Both the position numbers and the translations under genes were made by a program. Below the pieces are notes generated by a model that searched no databases, was not told the DNA's origin, and worked only from the letters and a program-made list of their open reading frames with translations. This document shows, piece by piece, positions 42,462 through 62,038 of a DNA stretch of 64,000 nucleotides. Source of the stretch: Naegleria gruberi. Lineage: Eukaryota. Position 1 is the stretch's first letter, and every line of letters begins with the position of its first letter. The stretch is taken from NCBI GenBank assembly GCA_000004985.1, contig GG738884.1; one strand, 5' to 3'.

Positions 42462-44264
42462 TTAAAATATGCCATACTTTCCAGGAGAGAGAATATTATT
42501 AGGATCAAGCGTTTTCTTTAAAGTTTGAAGAAGAGGTGGAACTGCATTATTGTCTTGTAACCAATTGACTGATTGAATTCCCAATCTGTATGGAACGTAG
42601 CCCAGTTTTTGACCTGCGTTCATTAGTTCATGATAGCACACTTGTGCACGTTTCATTTCTTCCTCATTATTTCTATCAAATAATAGAGGAATAGTACCAA
42701 CGCAACATCTATCCGAAAGACTGGTCAAAGTCATGAGTGGTTCAGTTTTGTGTTTCTTACAAATTTCATTGACCATTGAGGTGAATGAGTTCAAGTCTTG
42801 AGGAGTGATTGGTATGAGTGGATTGTACCAAATAATACCAGCTCCATCTTTGGATGGATTCCAAGGTTTATCTGTTGGTCTTTCACCTGATTTCCAATAA
42901 GCAATACGAAGACCAGTTTCATTTGGAATACCAGAAAATAACTCTAAAGATTTGGAAAGAACATTCGCATAGGTTGCCAAGTGTGTCTTGTTCACAATTG
43001 GAATTTGGTTTAAAAAGCTGGAAGTGGAGTGGACGAAATTGGCAGAAAGAAAGATATTTCTCTTACTTCCATACCTTCTCAAAATCTTCTTGATATCACT
43101 TCTTGCAGCTTTGATCACTGCAGAACTGCCATACAAATTACCAACTCCGTTCCATGCTGTGAATTGATTCTTCTTACAGAACGAATCAATATACGATTGT
43201 GGTAGCATTCCATCGACTGCTTGATCTTTCGGATAAGGCCCAGCCATAGGCACCATGGCATAGTTATTGATTAGTTTTACAGAACCAATAATTCCATTAG
43301 AACATCTCAAGATTTCTTTGGAAGCAGAAACAGCATTCGAAAGGTCATCAAAAAAGAAGAAGAAACTTTCAACCTTTTCTGGTTTAGGATACAAGGCAAT
43401 CGACATCTTGGTTACAATTCCCAAATTACTTTGAGAAAACAAACCCTCCAAATAAGGACCAGTTTGCCATTTGTAAAGTGTGGAAACATGTTTCCCGCCC
43501 ATTTTGTCCAACATGGATTCATGGACATTACCTGTTGGTAACACAATTCTCATACTTGTAGCAGCACCAAAATGATCAATGTATGGTGAGATTCCATATC
43601 CTCTTTCCAGAGCATTGGAAAGTAAACTACATGTTGGACCAGCACCAGTAACAGGAACTGTATAGTCAAGATTCCTTTCTTGTAAATAATCCAAAAGTTG
43701 TTGTTGAGTAACACCTGGTTCGACATGTGCAACACCATTTTCTTCATCCATATCTAATCTTGTCATTTTACTCATCTTTAACAAGACAGTTCTTTGATTA
43801 GTGGCAGGAAGAGCTGAGCCATAACCCCAATTCTGACCAGAACTGACAGGATTTAAAGGTACTTGATATCTGTTGGCTATCTTGACAATCTGAACAACCT
43901 GATCATGACTTGTTGGATAAACAATAGCTGGAACGTTTCGAATATTTCCAGAGCAATCAGCAAGCTCTCTCGAAAGACTTTCCTCATCTGTTGCCACATT
44001 AGTTGCACCAACAATAGAACGAAAGTGTTCCAGAGCTCTTGCCAACAAAATATCACCATTCGTCAAAGAGTCTTTGTTAGTAATCTTGAGTGAAGCTTGC
44101 TCGACATGTGAAAGCTCTTCTTTGACTTTCAATGGAGAATGAGTAATAATAGAAGATGAAGAATAGAAAGAGAGTGTATTAGGTGAAGTATTATTGGTAA
44201 AAGAACCAATGAACAACAACTTATTCTTATGGACATTCGCTAATTGATTTCGAATAGTTTTCAT
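42462..44264 (-). CDS. FAD-linked oxidoreductase, PCMH-type FAD-binding domain (VAO / D-lactate dehydrogenase family), probably mitochondrial
   Basis: 600-aa ORF with a basic N-terminal presequence-like leader. The FAD_binding_4-type block reads VPLNPVSSGQNWGYGSALP...VLLKMSKMTRLDMDEENGVAHVEPGVTQQQLLDYL...VPVTGAGPTCSLLSNALERGYG. A C-terminal oxidase domain follows. Confidence 0.75.
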   Translation of the reverse strand: MKTIRNQLANVHKNKLLFIGSFTNNTSPNTLSFYSSSSIITHSPLKVKEELSHVEQASLKITNKDSLTNGDILLARALEHFRSIVGATNVATDEESLSRELADCSGNIRNVPAIVYPTSHDQVVQIVKIANRYQVPLNPVSSGQNWGYGSALPATNQRTVLLKMSKMTRLDMDEENGVAHVEPGVTQQQLLDYLQERNLDYTVPVTGAGPTCSLLSNALERGYGISPYIDHFGAATSMRIVLPTGNVHESMLDKMGGKHVSTLYKWQTGPYLEGLFSQSNLGIVTKMSIALYPKPEKVESFFFFFDDLSNAVSASKEILRCSNGIIGSVKLINNYAMVPMAGPYPKDQAVDGMLPQSYIDSFCKKNQFTAWNGVGNLYGSSAVIKAARSDIKKILRRYGSKRNIFLSANFVHSTSSFLNQIPIVNKTHLATYANVLSKSLELFSGIPNETGLRIAYWKSGERPTDKPWNPSKDGAGIIWYNPLIPITPQDLNSFTSMVNEICKKHKTEPLMTLTSLSDRCCVGTIPLLFDRNNEEEMKRAQVCYHELMNAGQKLGYVPYRLGIQSVNWLQDNNAVPPLLQTLKKTLDPNNILSPGKYGIF

Positions 44265-44472: not shown

Positions 44473-44522
44473 NNNNNNNNNNNNNNNNNNNNNNNNNNNN
44501 NNNNNNNNNNNNNNNNNNNNNN
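44473..44522. other. Assembly gap (run of 50 N)
   Basis: Literal n characters in the sequence. It interrupts the 5' end of the gene at 44523..46122. Confidence 1.
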
Positions 44523-46122
44523 GTCACAAAAACACAACATTCTCCTCATCTTTCGTCGATTTGTAAGTTTCGGCGGGTGTGCCTTCTGCAATAGACGAAT
44601 GGTAGAGTTGATGGAATTTTACAGATCGCTCACACAGTTGAACATTGTACCAATTGTTGTTTATCCGGAAACTGAGGAAAGAGGAGAAGATTTTTTCAAT
44701 TCTGTAAGTTTACTACTGTTCAATGTTCAATAATATTAAATATTAAATACTATATTTACAATAATAATTAACTATTACTATTGAATATTTAACAACTTAC
44801 AAAAAAAATATTTAAAGTGGGAAATTCCCGAAATTTCATCACTCATTCGCGTTCCCGATCCAAACAATGAATTCGCCACTGTTTTTGATATTTACTCCGG
44901 CTCAGTTTCCAAAAAAGTAATCCTGACCTATCTCATTCCACAACTACTACTCACCAAAATGGATGGATTCTCACAGGAACGTAAGAAGAGGGATGAATAC
45001 CATGGGAAAAGTTTCTACATTCGACCTGCAATGTTTCTGATTAGGAGAGGGAAGGTCATCCATTCGTGGCGATTGAATTATGCCGATCATTGTCCTAAGG
45101 TTTTGGAAGAAATTGTTTTGAAATTGGATTTGAAAAGTGGTGGAGGTGATGATTTGGAAAGTTTGAAAATGAATGAGAAAAATGTTGTGAAAATTGAAAG
45201 TAAGAAAGTTATTGGAAAGGAAGAAGAGATGTTGAATGAAGTTTCTAATGAAAATGAAACAAGGAAGGAAGAATGTCAAAATGTAATAATGGAAATGGAA
45301 TTGAAAGAATGTGAATCTCAAATCAAGGAACAAATTCAAATGGAAGAAACTAAACTTGACGAATCTACCCTTCAAACCATTGAAATTTCCACACAAATCG
45401 ACATGCCAATCATTGACACTTCTAGAGAAATTCCAATCTACAAGAGAAAACAAGCAAGCTCATCATTGGAAATAATCACACCAACTGAAAAGAAGGAAAA
45501 TGAAAAAATTCAAACAATCAAAGCAAAGAAATCTCTCCAACCTAAATATTCCTGTTTTGGAAATCGAAATGTGGTAGGAGATTCGGATTTGAACATGTTG
45601 GTAGTTTTGGAAAATCCGAAACTTCGTAAATATTTCAAACTGTTTGCACATATGGAATTTAATATTGAGAATATTCTATTTTGGGAAGAAGTTAATACTC
45701 ACTACAAGCCAATTGCTTCATTTTCCAAATTTGACAAGACGAAATCAATTGCTACAAGTATTGGAAACCTTTTCCTATTCGATTCTCATTCAGTCATGCA
45801 CGTAAATACTTCGGATAAATTAAGGGAACAAGTAAGGGAACAAATTCAATTTCATTTCGAATCAAAATCCATTACTGAACTATTACCATCGAAATATAGA
45901 GTTAATAGATCATTAGAAGACACTGCTGTCGATCCACTTTCGAATACACCAGAAGAATCTGACAACATTTCACAACTTTCAATTGCTGATCGATTTAATG
46001 AAACAGTTACTGGAATATTTGATCCCATCATTAACGAAATGTTATCCTCTTCCATACAGGACATGTTTTTAAGATTCAGGACAAGTGATTTATTCTCCCA
46101 AATGATTTCTTCAGTAAAATAA
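44523..46122 (+). CDS. Thioredoxin-fold (PRXL2/AhpC-TSA_2-like, CxxC) :: RGS-domain fusion protein. The 5' end is lost in the gap. Exons are 44523..44703 and 44818..46122.
   Basis: The frame is open from the gap edge: ...ILLIFRRFVSFGGCAFCNRRMVELMEFYRSL, which resembles the PRXL2 motif VLFVRRPGCVLCREEA. A GTAAGT donor lies at 44704 and acceptor tttaaag at 44817. The thioredoxin fold continues (YHGKSFYIRPAMFLIRRGKVIHSW), followed by an acidic linker and an RGS domain (LENPKLRKYFKLFAHMEFNIENILFWEEVNTHYKP...FDPIINEMLSSSIQDMFLRFRTSDLF). Confidence 0.6.
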
Positions 46123-56208: not shown

Positions 56209-58140
56209 ATGGGAAAGAGAGAATTATACAGAAATAAACAAGCTTTGGCTAATGCTGCTCCTCTGGCTCAAGCACACTCCCAACCGCTTGGTATTACCAT
56301 CGGAGCACGTACATCTAATGTAAAGATGCCTAAGGAGGCCATTCCAGCCATCTATTATGAAAAGATTTTAAAATACATGAAAACAAAGGAAATGTTGAAT
56401 GATATTGCAGGAGCTTGCACTAAATATTTGTACAAACCATCGGATTGGAAGTATTATTACTTTGAACATCGTTGGAAGGAATATTCTAACGTGAGAAGAG
56501 CCTTGCGTAAATTAATTCAAATGGGAACACTTCAAGTCTTGTTGAGAGGAAAGTATTATAAGGAAGAGACTTCTGATCCAGAAGCTATTACAAGTGGTGG
56601 TGCCTCTTCTTCTACTGATAATAATCAATCAGCTGATGCTAGTAATGTTGCTTCCGAAGAAGTTTTACAAGTAAAAGAAGAAGAATTTGAAACTTTTGTA
56701 ATTGGAGGAAGAACATTAACTAGAAAAAAGTATGTAAAGGCTTCTTCTGTGCCATCGAATAAGAAGGCCACCACTCCAGTTGATCAAGAGGAAATTCAAA
56801 TTGAAGAAGAAGAAACAATTAATCAACAAGCAATGAATAAGAAGAATAAGAAGAAGAATAAGAAAAACAAAAAGAAGGATCCTTTTGAATTGGATGAGGA
56901 AAATGATGATCAAGATGATGGAACTTTTGATGGATTTGAAATTACCAGAGATGAGGATCGTCCACAATTATATGAATTGAATGAATGGAAAGATGATCCA
57001 AAGAAGAATAAGAAACAAAATAAGAAACAAAACAAAAAGCAAAGTTCTAGTTTGGAAATTGAAGAAGATACTTTTGTAAAGGAAGAAGAAGGTGGTGATA
57101 AGGGAATTCCTTCTAAAGCTGTACATATTGATTTTAATAATATCAAAAAGATTGTAAAGGCAACTGAAAAGATTGATTGTGCTGAAAATGAAGCAGTTCA
57201 GAATATTACTCTCAACTTGACAAGAAAATCAAAGGAAGAATCATCCAGCTCTCAGAAAACTGTGATTCAGGTTGTTAAAGGTGACATGTTGGAAACTGCA
57301 ATTAGTTTGAGAAGGATTTGTAAACTTAATCCACTCGTTTTGGTCTCTGGTAGCCAAACTGTTCCAGGAGGATCTTTTGCTAAGGGAGGAAATACTCAAG
57401 AGGAAGATTTCTGTAGAAGATCATCATTGTCTTTAGCAATTGCTGATCCATACAGATTTGATGAAACTAGAGAGTGGACTTACCCATTACCTGAATTTGG
57501 AGGAATTTATACACCAAATGTTGTAGTGTTAAGAGGTCCAAAGAGCGATGGATATGCCTTCTTGGATAGAACATGGGCTTGCTCAATGTTTATCACCTAT
57601 CCTTATGTGAATCCACCAACAGAGAAGAGAAAGGTAGCCGATCCAAATACTGTCATTCCAAATGAAGAGGACGATGACGAAGAAGTAACAACTGAGAATT
57701 TCCTCTCTACCAAATTGTCCAACTCAATGAAGAAGAAGATTGCTGCCTACTTTGATGTTGCATTAAAGAAGGGTCATGATTCTCTTGTTATTGGTGCTCT
57801 TGGTTGTGAAAATACTCACTCCAATCCTGCCTATCATATTGCTCAACTTTTCAAGGAAGTATTGGCAAGTGAAATTTTCAAGGACAAGTTCAAGGTTGTC
57901 ATTTTCTCTATTTTGGTTGATAAGGAAACTGATAGCAAGTTGGCCAATGAAGGTGGTGCTGACGATGTGGAAGAAGTTGAGGATAATGATGACGTCGAAG
58001 ATCAACAAGATATCTCAACCAATCTGCTCGATACTTCAATTGAAAGAAAGAATAATCTTTCAGTATTTTCCAAATTATTCCACGGAAAGGAAGAAGCTCC
58101 AACAGCTGAAGAATTCATTCCAACCATTGAATGTAAATAA
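56209..58140 (+). CDS. Bacterial-type poly(ADP-ribose) glycohydrolase (DUF2263/TIGR02452 macrodomain) with an N-terminal unknown domain and a K/N/E-rich linker
   Basis: The C-terminal 300 aa carry the PARG catalytic signature GGG-X6-8-QEE (LVLVSGSQTVPGGSFAKGGNTQEEDFCRRSSLSLAI) and the second conserved block LVIGALGCENTHSNPAYHIAQLFKEVL. The linker contains NKKNKKKNKKNKKKD and KKNKKQNKKQNKKQ repeats. Confidence 0.65.
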   Translation: MGKRELYRNKQALANAAPLAQAHSQPLGITIGARTSNVKMPKEAIPAIYYEKILKYMKTKEMLNDIAGACTKYLYKPSDWKYYYFEHRWKEYSNVRRALRKLIQMGTLQVLLRGKYYKEETSDPEAITSGGASSSTDNNQSADASNVASEEVLQVKEEEFETFVIGGRTLTRKKYVKASSVPSNKKATTPVDQEEIQIEEEETINQQAMNKKNKKKNKKNKKKDPFELDEENDDQDDGTFDGFEITRDEDRPQLYELNEWKDDPKKNKKQNKKQNKKQSSSLEIEEDTFVKEEEGGDKGIPSKAVHIDFNNIKKIVKATEKIDCAENEAVQNITLNLTRKSKEESSSSQKTVIQVVKGDMLETAISLRRICKLNPLVLVSGSQTVPGGSFAKGGNTQEEDFCRRSSLSLAIADPYRFDETREWTYPLPEFGGIYTPNVVVLRGPKSDGYAFLDRTWACSMFITYPYVNPPTEKRKVADPNTVIPNEEDDDEEVTTENFLSTKLSNSMKKKIAAYFDVALKKGHDSLVIGALGCENTHSNPAYHIAQLFKEVLASEIFKDKFKVVIFSILVDKETDSKLANEGGADDVEEVEDNDDVEDQQDISTNLLDTSIERKNNLSVFSKLFHGKEEAPTAEEFIPTIECK

Positions 58141-59531: not shown

Positions 59532-61586
59532 ATGGGACAAAACCATTCAGGTGGATCAAATTCTGTGGGTGGAATGGGAGGAACACTAGTTGGAGATCAA
59601 TACAAACCACCAGATCGTACCACAAACAATCTAGCTTCCTCCTTTCATACCAAAGAATCCATCAAAATTCAACAGCAGCAACAACAACAACCCGATTCAA
59701 ATACAAACAACAATAATACATCGTCAGGTAATCTTGTTCTGATAGCAGCATCCAACACTTCCGATGCCTTGCTCATGTCCATCGCAGAGTTAGTCATTGT
59801 TCTCCAACAATTGGGTGAGATTCATCTCGTTGTCTTGCTGGAGGAAATTTCTCGTCACTACTACGAGATTCAAATTGGAGGCAATTTTTCTTCTCTGGAA
59901 GCAATTGCTGCTGCTAACAATAACACACAAGGAAATGGCGCCACTTCTCCAACACAAAATTTACAGGGTGGTGGCCCTCTCGCCAGTACATCATTTAAAA
60001 ATGGCGCCACTGGAAATTATGGCAACTCGAATGTAGATAATGGTCTGAAGAAGTACATTAATTGTGCCAAGTATACTCCCACTTGGTTGGAAGATGAGGG
60101 TGTATTTGGAGGTGGTGGTGGTATCGGAAGTGGATCGATTGGTAGAGGGAGTAGAATTAGTATTGGAGCAACATCAGGAAATAATGGCATGGATGAAGAT
60201 GATATGGAGGAGGATTATGGTGTAAATTATAATACGGATTCTGCTTTTCAGGTCTGGTTGATTGCATTGAAGGATAGACAATTACCGAGATTTAAGAGAA
60301 AATTGGAAAAGTTATTTGTGGATAATAGTGGAGGAGCAAGGAAGGTTGCCTTCTCTTTCAATGTACAAATGTCAACCTCATCGACAAATAGTTTGAGAAG
60401 AGCTTCTTCATTCCTACACGCACAAACTAATCCAAAAACTAATTATGTCATTGATATGGATAGTAAGCAGAAATATTTTGAGGTGAGGTCAGAGATGGAA
60501 ATTATTCTCACTCATACTCTTGAGGAAATTAAAGATTTGAAAGAATGTTTGGATGCAAAGAGAAAAATCGAAGGAGGAACATCAAGTACCAGTGGAGCTG
60601 ATGTTGCCGATGTTTCGGTTCTCCTTCAAGATTTTGATTTTGAATGTAGTTGGTGGGAGAAGAAGATTGGCTCCTCCAATTTCAGTGTCAAGAAGAAGGC
60701 ATTTATTGATGCCATTGAAGAAACTTTTGCTCACTTGAAAGTCAAGTTTGAAATTGAGGTTTTGGAAGAGATTTCAGATCCAACTTGTGATGGAGTTGTA
60801 AGTGTGACAGATTTGAAAACTCTCACTAGATGGTTGGGCAGTATTTACAAGTGGAATACTGACGAATTGAAATTGAGAAATATTGCTGGAAAAGAAGATG
60901 CTGCACCAGTTATTTTCCTTCCTCATTTTTGGGGTTCAGTGACATGTTACGATGCACAAGATATTTTACAAAAGGAAGAACCTGGAACGTACATTATTCG
61001 TTTCAATGAGAACGAGCCTGGGCATTACTACATTTCATGTGTTCAGGAAAATGTTGTGGAAAATGAGGAGACTAGCTCAAATACTGGATTTTTTGCCACT
61101 CGTCAAGTGTATCACTTTGTATTGAAGAGAGGAAAAACTGAGAAGGGAGAACCTTACTATTACTTGTCCGATGCTGATAAGAGTCACAAATTCAAGACCA
61201 TTACTGAGCTACTTGATAAGAATTACTTTTTGACATTCAAATATCCATATGTCAATGACGATCTCAAGTCTGCATTTGTTTCAAAGAAGAGAGATGTCGA
61301 TGTCTTTGGTGCATTGAAGAGTTTATCAGGAGAGGGTGATGATTTGAATCCTTATCCATTTGTTGTATATAAGGGAAAGTTCAATGTTAATGAAAAGAAG
61401 AAGGAATCAGACATGAAAAAGATTGCCAATTTAGCTAAAAAGACTACTGAGCCGTCATTGGGCAATCCAGTCAATAATAATTCATCCTCAAGCATTAAAG
61501 ATCAAGAACCAGGTATGGTACGAGTGGATTCCCTCAATTTACCACTGAGTAATAGCAAGGAAGAAACTTTAGATTTATCTGAATAA
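59532..61586 (+). CDS. SH2-domain protein with an N-myristoylation motif and a Q/N/G-rich N-terminal half (possibly STAT-linker/SH2-like)
   Basis: Starts MGQNHSG (Gly2, Ser6). SH2 signature near aa 470-520: FWGSVTCYDAQDILQKEEPGTYIIRFNENEPGHYYISCV (W-x-G, FLVR-type Arg). No kinase or phosphatase domain is present. Confidence 0.6.
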   Translation: MGQNHSGGSNSVGGMGGTLVGDQYKPPDRTTNNLASSFHTKESIKIQQQQQQQPDSNTNNNNTSSGNLVLIAASNTSDALLMSIAELVIVLQQLGEIHLVVLLEEISRHYYEIQIGGNFSSLEAIAAANNNTQGNGATSPTQNLQGGGPLASTSFKNGATGNYGNSNVDNGLKKYINCAKYTPTWLEDEGVFGGGGGIGSGSIGRGSRISIGATSGNNGMDEDDMEEDYGVNYNTDSAFQVWLIALKDRQLPRFKRKLEKLFVDNSGGARKVAFSFNVQMSTSSTNSLRRASSFLHAQTNPKTNYVIDMDSKQKYFEVRSEMEIILTHTLEEIKDLKECLDAKRKIEGGTSSTSGADVADVSVLLQDFDFECSWWEKKIGSSNFSVKKKAFIDAIEETFAHLKVKFEIEVLEEISDPTCDGVVSVTDLKTLTRWLGSIYKWNTDELKLRNIAGKEDAAPVIFLPHFWGSVTCYDAQDILQKEEPGTYIIRFNENEPGHYYISCVQENVVENEETSSNTGFFATRQVYHFVLKRGKTEKGEPYYYLSDADKSHKFKTITELLDKNYFLTFKYPYVNDDLKSAFVSKKRDVDVFGALKSLSGEGDDLNPYPFVVYKGKFNVNEKKKESDMKKIANLAKKTTEPSLGNPVNNNSSSSIKDQEPGMVRVDSLNLPLSNSKEETLDLSE

Positions 61587-61967: not shown

Positions 61968-62038
61968 TCGGGTGTGGTATAGTGGTAGCATTCCAGACTG
62001 TCACTCTGGCGACCCGGGTTCAATTCCCGGCACTCGAG
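61968..62038 (+). tRNA. tRNA-Asp (anticodon GUC)
   Basis: TCGGGTGTGGTATAGTGGTAGCATTCCAGACTGTCACTCTGGCGACCCGGGTTCAATTCCCGGCACTCGAG aligns nearly residue-for-residue with eukaryotic tRNA-Asp. Anticodon stem CCAGA/TCTGG with loop CTGTCAC. T-arm CCGGG TTCAATT CCCGG. Confidence 0.85.

What the first reader, a model, noticed from the sequence alone, without database searches (positions are those of the whole stretch)
44523..46122. Thioredoxin-fold (PRXL2-like, CxxC) domain fused to an RGS domain, truncated by an assembly gap
A PRXL2/AhpC-TSA_2-like redox module containing an intact CAFC motif is joined in the same reading frame, across one 114-nt intron, to a canonical RGS domain. It is a candidate redox-regulated GAP for G-alpha. 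I am not aware of a described RGS protein with this N-terminal module. The true start codon and possibly more domain lie in or before the 50-N gap.
Basis: partly seen in the sequence, partly recalled or inferred. Interest (0 to 1): 0.7.

Follow-up and report, generated by a model that had tools for sequence, protein, structure and literature searches.

The report
Thioredoxin-fold CxxC domain fused to RGS
A Naegleria gruberi gene joins a peroxiredoxin-like redox domain with an intact CxxC motif to a G-protein "off-switch" (RGS) domain; the same combination, which the public names seen here do not mention, recurs as a family in heterolobosean amoebae including N. fowleri and suggests, without proving, a direct link between cell redox state and G-protein signalling.

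Summary
After a 50-N gap (44473-44522), an open frame runs 44524-44703, then a 114-nt GTAAGT...AG intron (15% GC), then one exon 44818-46122. The spliced product is 494 aa. It carries CAFC (44578-44589) and an RGS domain above Pfam's threshold.

The window is Naegleria gruberi. The public model (387 aa) starts at an internal Met and misses the redox module.

The fusion does not depend on the splice. The last two-thirds of the module, the linker and the RGS domain lie in a single exon.

The architecture recurs in at least 41 protein clusters. All named members are Heterolobosea (Naegleria, Willaertia, Acrasis). CxxC is kept in 31 of 36 members, and the RGS residues that contact G-alpha are conserved.

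A redox-gated GAP is the best reading but is untested. I found no paper describing this architecture. I rate it a new variant of a known kind, of moderate interest.

The parts
44473..44522 (.). Assembly gap (50 N) that removes the start codon, the N-terminal extension and about 10 residues preceding strand beta-1 of the module
   Evidence: Homologues extend about 30-90 aa further upstream. Attempts to bridge the gap failed.
44524..44703 (+). Exon 1 (partial, 60 codons): strand beta-1, the CxxC loop, helix alpha-1 and strand beta-2 of the peroxiredoxin-like module
   Evidence: Open frame. 75% identical to N. lovaniensis P0002 over this stretch.
44578..44589 (+). CAFC redox motif (residues 19-22 of the 494-aa product)
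   Evidence: Aligned with the invariant CxxC of the family. Lies at the N-terminus of helix alpha-1 in the model of the N. lovaniensis homologue's module.
44704..44817 (+). Phase-0 intron, 114 nt, GTAAGT...AG, 15% GC
   Evidence: Position conserved in N. lovaniensis L001 and in L002. Read-through signatures in exon-1-only ORF calls P0004, P0009, P0011, P0045 and P0065.
44818..46122 (+). Exon 2 (434 codons plus TAA): the rest of the module, the linker and the RGS domain in one uninterrupted ORF
44818..45144 (+). C-terminal two-thirds of the peroxiredoxin-like module, including the conserved DP (VPDPNN) and the Pro loop that I take, from general thioredoxin-fold knowledge, to be the cis-Pro loop (YIRPAMFLI, 45016-45042)
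   Evidence: Model topology.
45145..45420 (+). Glu/Lys-rich low-complexity spacer, variable in length and sequence between homologues
   Evidence: The corresponding region of P0003 has pLDDT below 50.
45421..45564 (+). Conserved pre-RGS element (IPIYKRK...LEIITPTEKK...KAKK) ending in a conserved Cys (TGT, 45553-45555) in a basic and hydrophobic context
   Evidence: A Cys is present in 24 of 32 members against about 21% expected. The P0003 model gives a hairpin plus helix here at pLDDT 57-85.
45586..46110 (+). RGS domain (residues about 317-491) with conserved equivalents of RGS4 E87, N88, N128, D163 and R167. Contains a 29-aa insertion absent from the two N. lovaniensis homologues (45904-45990).
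   Evidence: Pfam; residue conservation; alignment to RGS10; insertion.

Best explanation
Shown. This is one real Naegleria gruberi gene, and its 5' end is lost in an assembly gap. It encodes a protein with no predicted membrane-spanning segment, probably soluble and cytosolic, with this layout:
- [missing N-terminal extension]
- a peroxiredoxin-like thioredoxin-fold module of the AhpC/TSA_2 (PRXL2/SelL) type with a CxxC
- an acidic disordered spacer
- a short conserved pre-RGS element ending in a Cys
- an RGS domain that keeps the residues RGS4 uses to contact G-alpha.
It belongs to a multi-paralogue family in which every named member is a heterolobosean.

Inferred. The RGS domain acts as a GTPase-activating protein for one or more of the many Naegleria G-alpha subunits. 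The CxxC module is a thiol-disulfide input domain. Oxidation to a disulfide or reduction to a dithiol changes the module's conformation or its partners, and this changes how well, or where, the RGS domain meets G-alpha-GTP.

Some Naegleria G-alpha subunits load GTP on their own, so control sits at the GAP step. In 7TM-RGS proteins an N-terminal receptor part is thought to supply the input. Here the CxxC module would play that role as a cytosolic input reporting redox or peroxide state.

The conserved basic-hydrophobic Cys just before the RGS domain is most simply read as a palmitoylation or membrane-association site. It varies independently of the CxxC.

I put the gene structure and architecture at 0.95 or higher, a functional GAP at about 0.7, and redox gating of the GAP at about 0.4-0.45.
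For: Gene and organism:
- 100% match to an N. gruberi predicted protein.
- Full-length homologues in N. lovaniensis.
- A conserved intron position.
- Single-exon continuity of module, linker and RGS domain.

Family:
- A Naegleria-only profile found 85 proteins, 41 of them with an RGS domain.
- RGS was above Pfam's gathering score in 10 of 10 members tested.
- Named members are N. fowleri, N. lovaniensis, N. gruberi, Willaertia magna and Acrasis kona.

- The standalone hits pass PF13911 and PF00578.
- hhalign gives 98.7%, E 3e-16 over 148 columns with the CxxC motifs aligned.
- The AlphaFold model of the P0002 module has pLDDT 82.6 with the CxxC at the start of helix alpha-1.
- PRXL2B is the only PDB sequence hit in which the aligned stretch spans nearly the whole profile.

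Selection on the redox motif:
- CxxC is kept in 31 of 36 RGS-bearing members that include that region.
- The Pro loop and the DP motif are kept.

GAP competence:
- Equivalents of RGS4 E87 (32/32), N88 (25/32), N128 (30/32), D163 (25/32) and R167 (27/32) are conserved, and all five are present in the window gene.

Other:
- No transmembrane-like segment in the window product or in 33 family members scanned.
- Biological frame: self-activating N. fowleri G-alpha subunits, 7TM-RGS proteins and 79 further RGS proteins (PMC9283941); 229 RGS proteins in N. gruberi (PMC3971589).
- In human PRXL2B, CxxC reduction changes stability and disorder (PMC12938796).
Against: - There is no functional, expression or interaction evidence of any kind.
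- The window's own module fails every Pfam threshold.
- Its clade has a 3-residue insertion before the CxxC, and a Tyr where the wider family has a nearly invariant His. Its chemistry may therefore differ from characterised relatives.
- Five family members have lost the CxxC while keeping the RGS domain, so the module can persist without redox chemistry.
- The full-length model (of homologue P0003) is of low confidence (mean pLDDT 60). The tool reports no inter-domain contacts, and the model returned no RGS structural match among the 50 matches listed.
- A long disordered spacer separates the two domains, which gives no hint of tight allosteric coupling.
- The missing N-terminus could hold a further domain or a targeting signal.
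Confidence: 0.5

Rival explanations
1. Targeted redox enzyme. The module is the business end: a CxxC reductase acting on a peroxide, lipid endoperoxide or protein disulfide, as PRXL2B does on PGH2. The RGS domain mainly docks it onto activated G-alpha at the membrane, as RGS-like domains do in effectors such as RGS-RhoGEFs and GRK2. G-protein activation would then control where redox chemistry happens, rather than redox controlling the GAP.
For: The closest characterised relative with a solved structure is an enzyme that uses its CxxC catalytically (PMC12938796). CxxC, the Pro loop and DP are conserved. A membrane-anchor-like Cys motif lies next to the RGS domain. An RGS-RhoGEF is a putative G-alpha effector that binds G-alpha in N. 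fowleri.
Against: The RGS domain keeps the full set of GAP-type contact residues, including the N128 equivalent. I recall that RGS-like docking domains in effectors usually lack these; I did not check that here. Five paralogues dropped the CxxC but kept the RGS domain, which suggests that the RGS domain is the indispensable part.
Confidence: 0.2
2. Non-catalytic scaffold. The thioredoxin-fold module is a dimerisation or partner-binding domain, as the thioredoxin-fold domain of phosducin binds G-beta-gamma. The cysteines would be structural or vestigial, with no redox signalling involved.
For: The module is divergent: sub-threshold on Pfam, with a 3-residue insertion and a His-to-Tyr change. 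Five members lack the CxxC. Human PRXL2B is a homodimer with the CxxC helix at the interface (PMC12938796). A thioredoxin fold has precedent in G-protein signalling through phosducin (own knowledge).
Against: Both cysteines are retained in 31 of 36 members across deep divergence (about 20-25% identity), together with the Pro loop. That pattern is typical of active thiol-disulfide sites. There is no Pfam phosducin match.
Confidence: 0.2
3. Annotation or assembly artefact. Two adjacent genes or a pseudogene have been read as one, or exon 1 is not part of the RGS transcript.
For: The public N. gruberi model starts at Met 44959 and lacks the module. An assembly gap abuts exon 1. No transcript data were available.
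Against: The C-terminal 109 residues of the module, the linker and the RGS domain are in one ORF without stops. Full-length gene models with the same order exist in N. lovaniensis (at least 5 paralogues), N. fowleri, Willaertia and Acrasis. The intron position is conserved and the junction aligns without gaps. The public model is explained by truncation at the first Met after the intron.
Confidence: 0.03

Closest known systems
PRXL2 / SELENOU family (human PRXL2B = prostamide/prostaglandin F synthase, PDB 9us9/9usa; PRXL2A), Pfam PF13911 AhpC/TSA_2
   Different: PRXL2 proteins are standalone enzymes with no RGS domain. Sequence similarity is weak (E 0.0076 against the PDB). The window protein scores only 13.4 bits on PF13911 against a gathering score of 27. 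It has a 3-residue insertion before the CxxC, and Tyr in place of the His that is nearly invariant among the family members aligned here.
Bacterial 'SelL-related redox protein' / 'peroxiredoxin-like family protein' (about 175 aa; named examples from Planctomycetota)
   Same: These are the nearest non-RGS relatives by sequence: E 2e-7 to 1e-3 with the Naegleria-only profile, and hhalign 98.7%. They share the layout FLRHxGCxFC ... VH ... SDP ... MPG.F.
   Different: They are single-domain and prokaryotic. They pass PF13911 and PF00578, which the fused eukaryotic modules do not.
Canonical small RGS proteins (RGS4, RGS10; Pfam PF00615)
   Same: The RGS domain is above the gathering score. Equivalents of E87, N88, N128, D163 and R167 are present. 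A Cys in a basic and hydrophobic segment precedes the domain, reminiscent of the palmitoylated N-terminal segments of R4-type RGS proteins (own knowledge).
   Different: A roughly 165-aa redox-type domain plus a spacer lies N-terminal to the RGS domain. The N. gruberi RGS domain has a 29-aa insertion. Identity to animal RGS domains is low.
7TM-RGS proteins (Arabidopsis AtRGS1; N. fowleri 7TM RGS1-4)
   Same: Same logic: a sensory module N-terminal to an RGS domain, in organisms where some G-alpha subunits self-activate so the GAP step is the control point (PMC9283941).
   Different: There the input is a membrane receptor facing outside. Here it is a soluble cytosolic CxxC module, with no transmembrane segment.
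ADO-RGS4/5 Cys N-degron oxygen-sensing pathway in animals
   Same: It couples oxidative chemistry on a cysteine to RGS function, and so to G-protein signalling (papers listed).
   Different: It works in trans, through a dioxygenase and proteasomal degradation of the RGS protein. It does not use a built-in thioredoxin-fold domain.
Phosducin / phosducin-like proteins
   Same: A thioredoxin-fold domain recruited into heterotrimeric G-protein signalling (own knowledge).
   Different: Phosducin binds G-beta-gamma, has no CxxC and no RGS domain, and belongs to a different thioredoxin subfamily. There was no Pfam match here.

Membership tests
RGS domain family (Pfam PF00615) | Profile HMM score above the curated gathering score | tested here: met
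   26.7 bits against 23.9, E 8e-6. Homologues score 33.6-64 bits.
RGS domain family (Pfam PF00615) | G-alpha switch-contact residues of GAP-competent RGS domains (RGS4 E87, N88, N128, D163, R167) | tested here: met
   All five are present in the window protein and in 25-32 of 32 family members. The RGS4 sequence was recalled from memory, but its numbering reproduced the known residues.
RGS domain family (Pfam PF00615) | Nine-helix bundle fold | tested here: inconclusive
   The full-length model of homologue P0003 is all-helical over this region, but pLDDT is 38-90 per 10-residue block. There was no RGS structure among the 50 Foldseek matches listed.
RGS domain family (Pfam PF00615) | GAP activity on a G-alpha subunit | not testable with these tools
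   Needs a single-turnover GTPase assay with Naegleria G-alpha subunits.
AhpC/TSA_2 (PF13911; PRXL2/SELENOU/SelL-type CxxC peroxiredoxin-like proteins) | Profile HMM score above the curated gathering score | tested here: not met
   13.4 bits against 27 (E 0.11) for the window module. The fused homologues also got only sub-threshold AhpC-TSA hits or none.
AhpC/TSA_2 (PF13911; PRXL2/SELENOU/SelL-type CxxC peroxiredoxin-like proteins) | Demonstrable homology to proteins that do pass PF13911 | tested here: met
   The Naegleria-only profile hits such proteins at E 2e-7 to 1e-3 in 1.84 billion sequences. hhalign gives 98.7%, E 3e-16 over 148 columns.
AhpC/TSA_2 (PF13911; PRXL2/SELENOU/SelL-type CxxC peroxiredoxin-like proteins) | CxxC at the N-terminus of helix alpha-1, aligned with the family's invariant CxxC | tested here: met
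   CAFC at 44578-44589. Aligned. Position in the homologue's module model.
AhpC/TSA_2 (PF13911; PRXL2/SELENOU/SelL-type CxxC peroxiredoxin-like proteins) | Peroxiredoxin-like thioredoxin fold | tested here: met
AhpC/TSA_2 (PF13911; PRXL2/SELENOU/SelL-type CxxC peroxiredoxin-like proteins) | Thiol-disulfide redox activity of the CxxC | not testable with these tools
   Needs biochemistry: redox potential, insulin or peroxide reduction, and thiol trapping.
Classical peroxiredoxins (PF00578 AhpC-TSA) | HMM above the gathering score, and the PxxxTxxC peroxidatic motif | tested here: not met
   15 bits against 26. The second Cys aligns with the peroxidatic Cys of 1-Cys Prx, but the Thr position is occupied by the first Cys and the Pro position by Ser (sequence FVSFGGCAFC).
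Phosducin-type thioredoxin-fold G-beta-gamma binders | Match to the phosducin profile | tested here: not met
   No phosducin family hit in Pfam scans at E up to 10.

The most novel reading that the evidence does not exclude
Heterolobosean amoebae have a dedicated family of cytosolic G-protein regulators with a built-in thiol switch. The peroxiredoxin-like CxxC domain would be oxidised, directly or by relay from peroxiredoxins, when H2O2 or oxygen rises. That would turn the attached RGS GAP on or off. Because Naegleria G-alpha subunits can self-activate, the RGS protein itself would then act as the 'receptor', giving a direct one-polypeptide link from intracellular redox state to heterotrimeric G-protein output. 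This would include the pathogen N. fowleri.
Probability: 0.3. Interest if true: 0.7.

Novelty: new variant of a known kind. Interest (0 to 1): 0.5.

Why it matters
RGS proteins are modular, and their accessory domains say what signals feed into G-protein shut-off. A conserved, multi-paralogue family pairs a CxxC peroxiredoxin-like domain with an RGS domain that looks competent as a GAP. That would add intracellular redox state to the list of inputs.

The setting also matters. In Naegleria the GAP step, not receptor-driven nucleotide exchange, appears to be a main control point. The family includes N. fowleri proteins, so it may bear on stress and oxygen responses of a lethal pathogen.

There is a practical point too. 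Standard Pfam thresholds, and the source names I saw, do not flag the redox module, and at least two N. gruberi gene models are truncated so that they lack it. Architecture surveys based on Pfam scans would therefore not have seen this family.

Tried and rejected
- Pfam on the whole protein and on the isolated module: only sub-threshold redox-family hits. This could not settle the module's identity.
- phmmer of the module against PDB sequences: nothing.
- Word-indexed homologue search with the module alone: only one exon-1 fragment, missing even the known N. lovaniensis homologues. The exhaustive search was needed.
I used the N. lovaniensis homologue (60% identical over the module) as target, with the window's two exon peptides as alignment rows.
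- Gap closure: an exact look-up of the public 387-aa product found no other contig. An exact 52-nt exon-1 pattern found nothing in metagenome contigs.
- afdb50 fold library: not available.
- Full-length AlphaFold model of P0003: low confidence outside the module. Its fold search returned only peroxiredoxin-like matches, so it gave no structural confirmation of the RGS fold and no inter-domain information.
- Synteny: the SH2 gene that directly follows the P0002 gene in N. lovaniensis lies 13-14 kb downstream here. Orthology to P0002 rather than P0003 is therefore likely but not proven. No second copy of the fusion exists in the window.
- Idea that the conserved linker Cys is the redox partner of the CxxC: rejected as the default reading. 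The two features are lost independently: P0067 and P0082 keep the Cys without a CxxC, while P0014, P0021, P0029, P0054, P0072 and P0084 keep the CxxC without the Cys.
- Idea that the 29-aa insertion in the RGS domain is an unrecognised intron: rejected. It is 37% GC like the exons (the real intron is 15%), it has no GTAAGT donor, and it stays in frame.
- Literature: five full-text searches combining RGS with thioredoxin, peroxiredoxin, redox or Acrasis terms found nothing relevant. The most likely place for a prior mention, Anantharaman et al. 2011 (Gene 475:63; PMC3396428), is not held and could not be checked.
Full report
**What is in the sequence**

The window is AT-rich (about 34% GC) and eukaryotic. 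The region contains the only assembly gap, 50 N at 44473-44522. Directly after it, the frame starting at 44524 is open for 60 codons, to 44703. A 114-nt stretch follows (44704-44817). It begins GTAAGT, ends AG, is 15% GC against 34-39% in the flanks, and carries in-frame stops. The same frame then continues for 434 codons to a TAA at 46120-46122. The spliced product is 494 aa and contains CAFC, encoded at 44578-44589.

**Organism and public annotation**

The C-terminal 387 aa are 100% identical to a 'predicted protein [Naegleria gruberi]'. That public model equals the ORF 44959-46122, which starts at the first Met inside exon 2. It therefore lacks the whole CxxC-bearing part.

Two N. lovaniensis proteins (626 and 549 aa) align over the full 494 aa at 36-37% identity by BLASTP (41-44% in the MAFFT alignment). 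The alignment runs across the splice junction without a gap, and CAFC/CCFC is conserved. Genomic DNA of N. lovaniensis, and of a further Naegleria-like species from Logan/ENA assemblies, shows an intron at exactly the same codon boundary. Several exon-1-only ORF calls from other assemblies end in the tell-tale 'FFxx|V...' read-through of a GT donor.

**The fusion is real and does not depend on the splice**

The intron cuts the redox module after its second beta strand. The remaining 109 residues of the module, the spacer and the RGS domain are in one uninterrupted exon. So the two domains are joined even if the splice is ignored. Homologues have about 30-90 residues upstream of the point where the window sequence resumes. 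I could not bridge the gap.

**The C-terminal domain**

Pfam RGS scores 26.7 bits against a gathering score of 23.9. The match is partial because N. gruberi has a 29-aa insertion (45904-45990) that the N. lovaniensis proteins lack. The insertion is coding-like in composition.

I aligned the domain to RGS4 and to 31 family members. The equivalents of E87, N88, N128, D163 and R167 of RGS4, which contact the G-alpha switch regions, are all present in the window gene. They are conserved in 25-32 of 32 members. RGS10 is the best PDB sequence match. Structural confirmation failed: the full-length model is weak over this domain.

**The N-terminal module**

The module is below every Pfam threshold: AhpC-TSA E 0.025, Thioredoxin_8 E 0.085, AhpC-TSA_2 E 0.11. 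A profile built only from Naegleria sequences was searched exhaustively against 1.84 billion representatives and found 85 proteins. They fall into two groups.

- About half are the same fusion.
- The rest are mostly proteins of about 175 aa with the same FLRHxGCxFC...VH...SDP...MPG.F layout, or the same module behind an N-terminal membrane domain. Ten of them were scanned; eight of those passed both PF13911 and PF00578. Their sources name them 'SelL-related redox protein' or 'peroxiredoxin-like family protein'.

Further evidence on the module:

- Profile-profile comparison of the Naegleria-only alignment with 24 of those proteins gives 98.7% probability, E 3e-16 over 148 columns, with the CxxC motifs superposed.
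It has thioredoxin-fold topology with the CxxC at the start of helix alpha-1.
- PRXL2B is the one PDB sequence whose aligned stretch spans nearly the whole profile (E 0.0076).
- It is not a classical peroxiredoxin. The Thr of PxxxTxxC is replaced by the first Cys, and the Pro by Ser.

The nearest relatives are the bacterial SelL-related clade. The Naegleria subgroup is divergent, with a 3-residue insertion before the CxxC and Tyr for a nearly invariant His.

**A family, not a one-off**

Of the 85 hits, 41 carry an RGS domain, and 10 of 10 tested pass Pfam RGS. Named members are:

- N. gruberi: this gene plus EFC40784, EFC41756 and EFC44634
- N. lovaniensis: at least five paralogues
- N. fowleri: a 1050-aa form
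- Willaertia magna
- Acrasis kona: at least six

All of these are Heterolobosea. Many further members come from unnamed metagenome, Logan or EukProt sequences.

Of the 36 RGS-bearing members that include the relevant region, 31 keep CxxC and five have lost one or both cysteines. Sources name these proteins only as 'RGS domain-containing protein', 'G protein signaling regulator' or 'hypothetical'.

I found no paper that mentions a thioredoxin- or peroxiredoxin-fold domain joined to an RGS domain. The N. fowleri G-protein study lists 28 7TM-RGS proteins and 79 other RGS proteins without mentioning it. The survey most likely to have noticed it, Anantharaman et al. 2011, is not held.

**The region between the domains**

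A Glu/Lys-rich spacer (45145-45420) varies in length and sequence and is predicted to be disordered. A conserved pre-RGS element follows (45421-45564; in Naegleria-type members 'VP(R/K)YR(K/R)...LE..(T/S).E.K'). It is modelled as a hairpin plus helix at pLDDT 57-85.

The element ends in a Cys within a basic and hydrophobic context (KAKKSLQPKYSCFGN; Cys codon 45553-45555). A Cys occurs in this 22-residue zone in 24 of 32 members, against about 21% expected from the Cys content of the rest of the linkers. The sequences are related, so the nominal P of 1e-10 overstates the case.

This Cys and the CxxC are lost independently. I therefore read the Cys as a likely palmitoylation or membrane-association site rather than a redox partner. 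That reading is an inference. No transmembrane segment is present in the window product or in 33 family members scanned.

**Mechanism**

Shown: the architecture, the conservation of the redox motif and of the residues that contact G-alpha, and the absence of any predicted membrane-spanning segment.

Inferred: the RGS domain is a GAP for Naegleria G-alpha subunits, and the CxxC module is a thiol-disulfide input that modulates GAP activity or localisation.

The inference fits the biology reported for N. fowleri. Some G-alpha subunits there self-activate, and N-terminal sensory parts on 7TM-RGS proteins are thought to supply the input (PMC9283941). It also fits the report that reduction of the CxxC in human PRXL2B changes stability and local disorder (PMC12938796).

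Two rivals remain open. In one, the module is an enzyme that the RGS domain docks onto active G-alpha. In the other, the module is a non-catalytic scaffold. A gene-model artefact is essentially excluded.

**Verdict**

The finding is real and correctly interpreted at the structural level. It is a new variant of a known kind: an RGS protein with an accessory domain that I could not find described. It is family-wide in Heterolobosea, and neither Pfam thresholds nor the source names I saw flag the redox module.

Interest is moderate, for three reasons. RGS domain shuffling is common (229 RGS proteins in N. gruberi; PMC3971589). The proteins are already deposited. The redox-gating idea is untested.

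Noticed in passing
window 45553-45555 (Cys in KAKKSLQPKYSCFGN), within 45421-45564: A Cys in a basic and hydrophobic context about 10-25 residues before RGS helix 1 (10 in the window gene) is present in 24 of 32 family members, against about 21% expected. It is lost independently of the CxxC. It looks like a polybasic-plus-palmitoyl membrane anchor. Upstream of it, Naegleria-type members share a 'VP(R/K)YR(K/R)...LE' element that AlphaFold models as a hairpin plus helix.
   Followed up: partly
window 44548-44577 (FRRFVSFGG) and 44662-44664 (Tyr in VVYPE): The Naegleria subgroup containing this gene has a 3-residue insertion between strand beta-1 and the CxxC. It also replaces the nearly invariant His of the wider AhpC/TSA_2-like family ('VH.E') with Tyr. 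The functional meaning is unknown.
   Followed up: no
window 45904-45990: A 29-aa acidic and Ser-rich insertion inside the RGS domain is absent from both N. lovaniensis homologues. Its composition is exon-like (37% GC), so it is probably a loop insertion rather than a missed intron. It is why the Pfam RGS match is only partial.
   Followed up: partly
window 44959-46122; also N. gruberi EFC40784 (P0017): At least two public N. gruberi gene models of this family are N-terminally truncated: they start inside or after the redox module and lack the CxxC exon. Prokaryote-style gene calls in Logan, ENA and JGI assemblies split the gene at the conserved intron. Architecture surveys would therefore undercount the family.
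   Followed up: partly
window 42462-44264 (-): A divergently oriented neighbour encodes a 600-aa FAD-linked oxidase (FAD_binding_4 plus FAD-oxidase_C). Its start lies only about 210 nt from the gap, so the two genes probably share a short bidirectional promoter region. A redox enzyme next to a redox-module gene may be coincidence.
   Followed up: no
window 59532-61586 (+) and 61968-62038 (+): An SH2-domain gene is orthologous to the gene that directly follows the P0002 gene in N. lovaniensis and in L002. Here it lies 13-14 kb downstream, which implies a local rearrangement or insertion. A tRNA-Asp(GTC) follows it.
   Followed up: partly
window 56209-58140 (+): A 643-aa ORF matches the microbial-type poly(ADP-ribose) glycohydrolase catalytic domain (PF10021, E 1.5e-17).
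   Followed up: no
hits P0046, P0047, P0050, P0057, P0063, P0075; P0035: The same CxxC module occurs behind an N-terminal multi-pass membrane domain. These are probably bacterial, but their taxa were not looked up. In P0075 a DCC1-like thiol-disulfide oxidoreductase domain is also present. One unnamed RGS-bearing member (P0035) appears to have two Cys-less copies of the module, plus what looks by eye like a CAP-Gly-type stretch (not scanned against Pfam).
   Followed up: no
one search hit list: The nearest named non-RGS relatives of the module are from Planctomycetota (Aureliella, Pirellulaceae) rather than eukaryotic PRXL2 proteins. This could mean the heterolobosean module was acquired from bacteria, or it could simply reflect database composition.
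   Followed up: no
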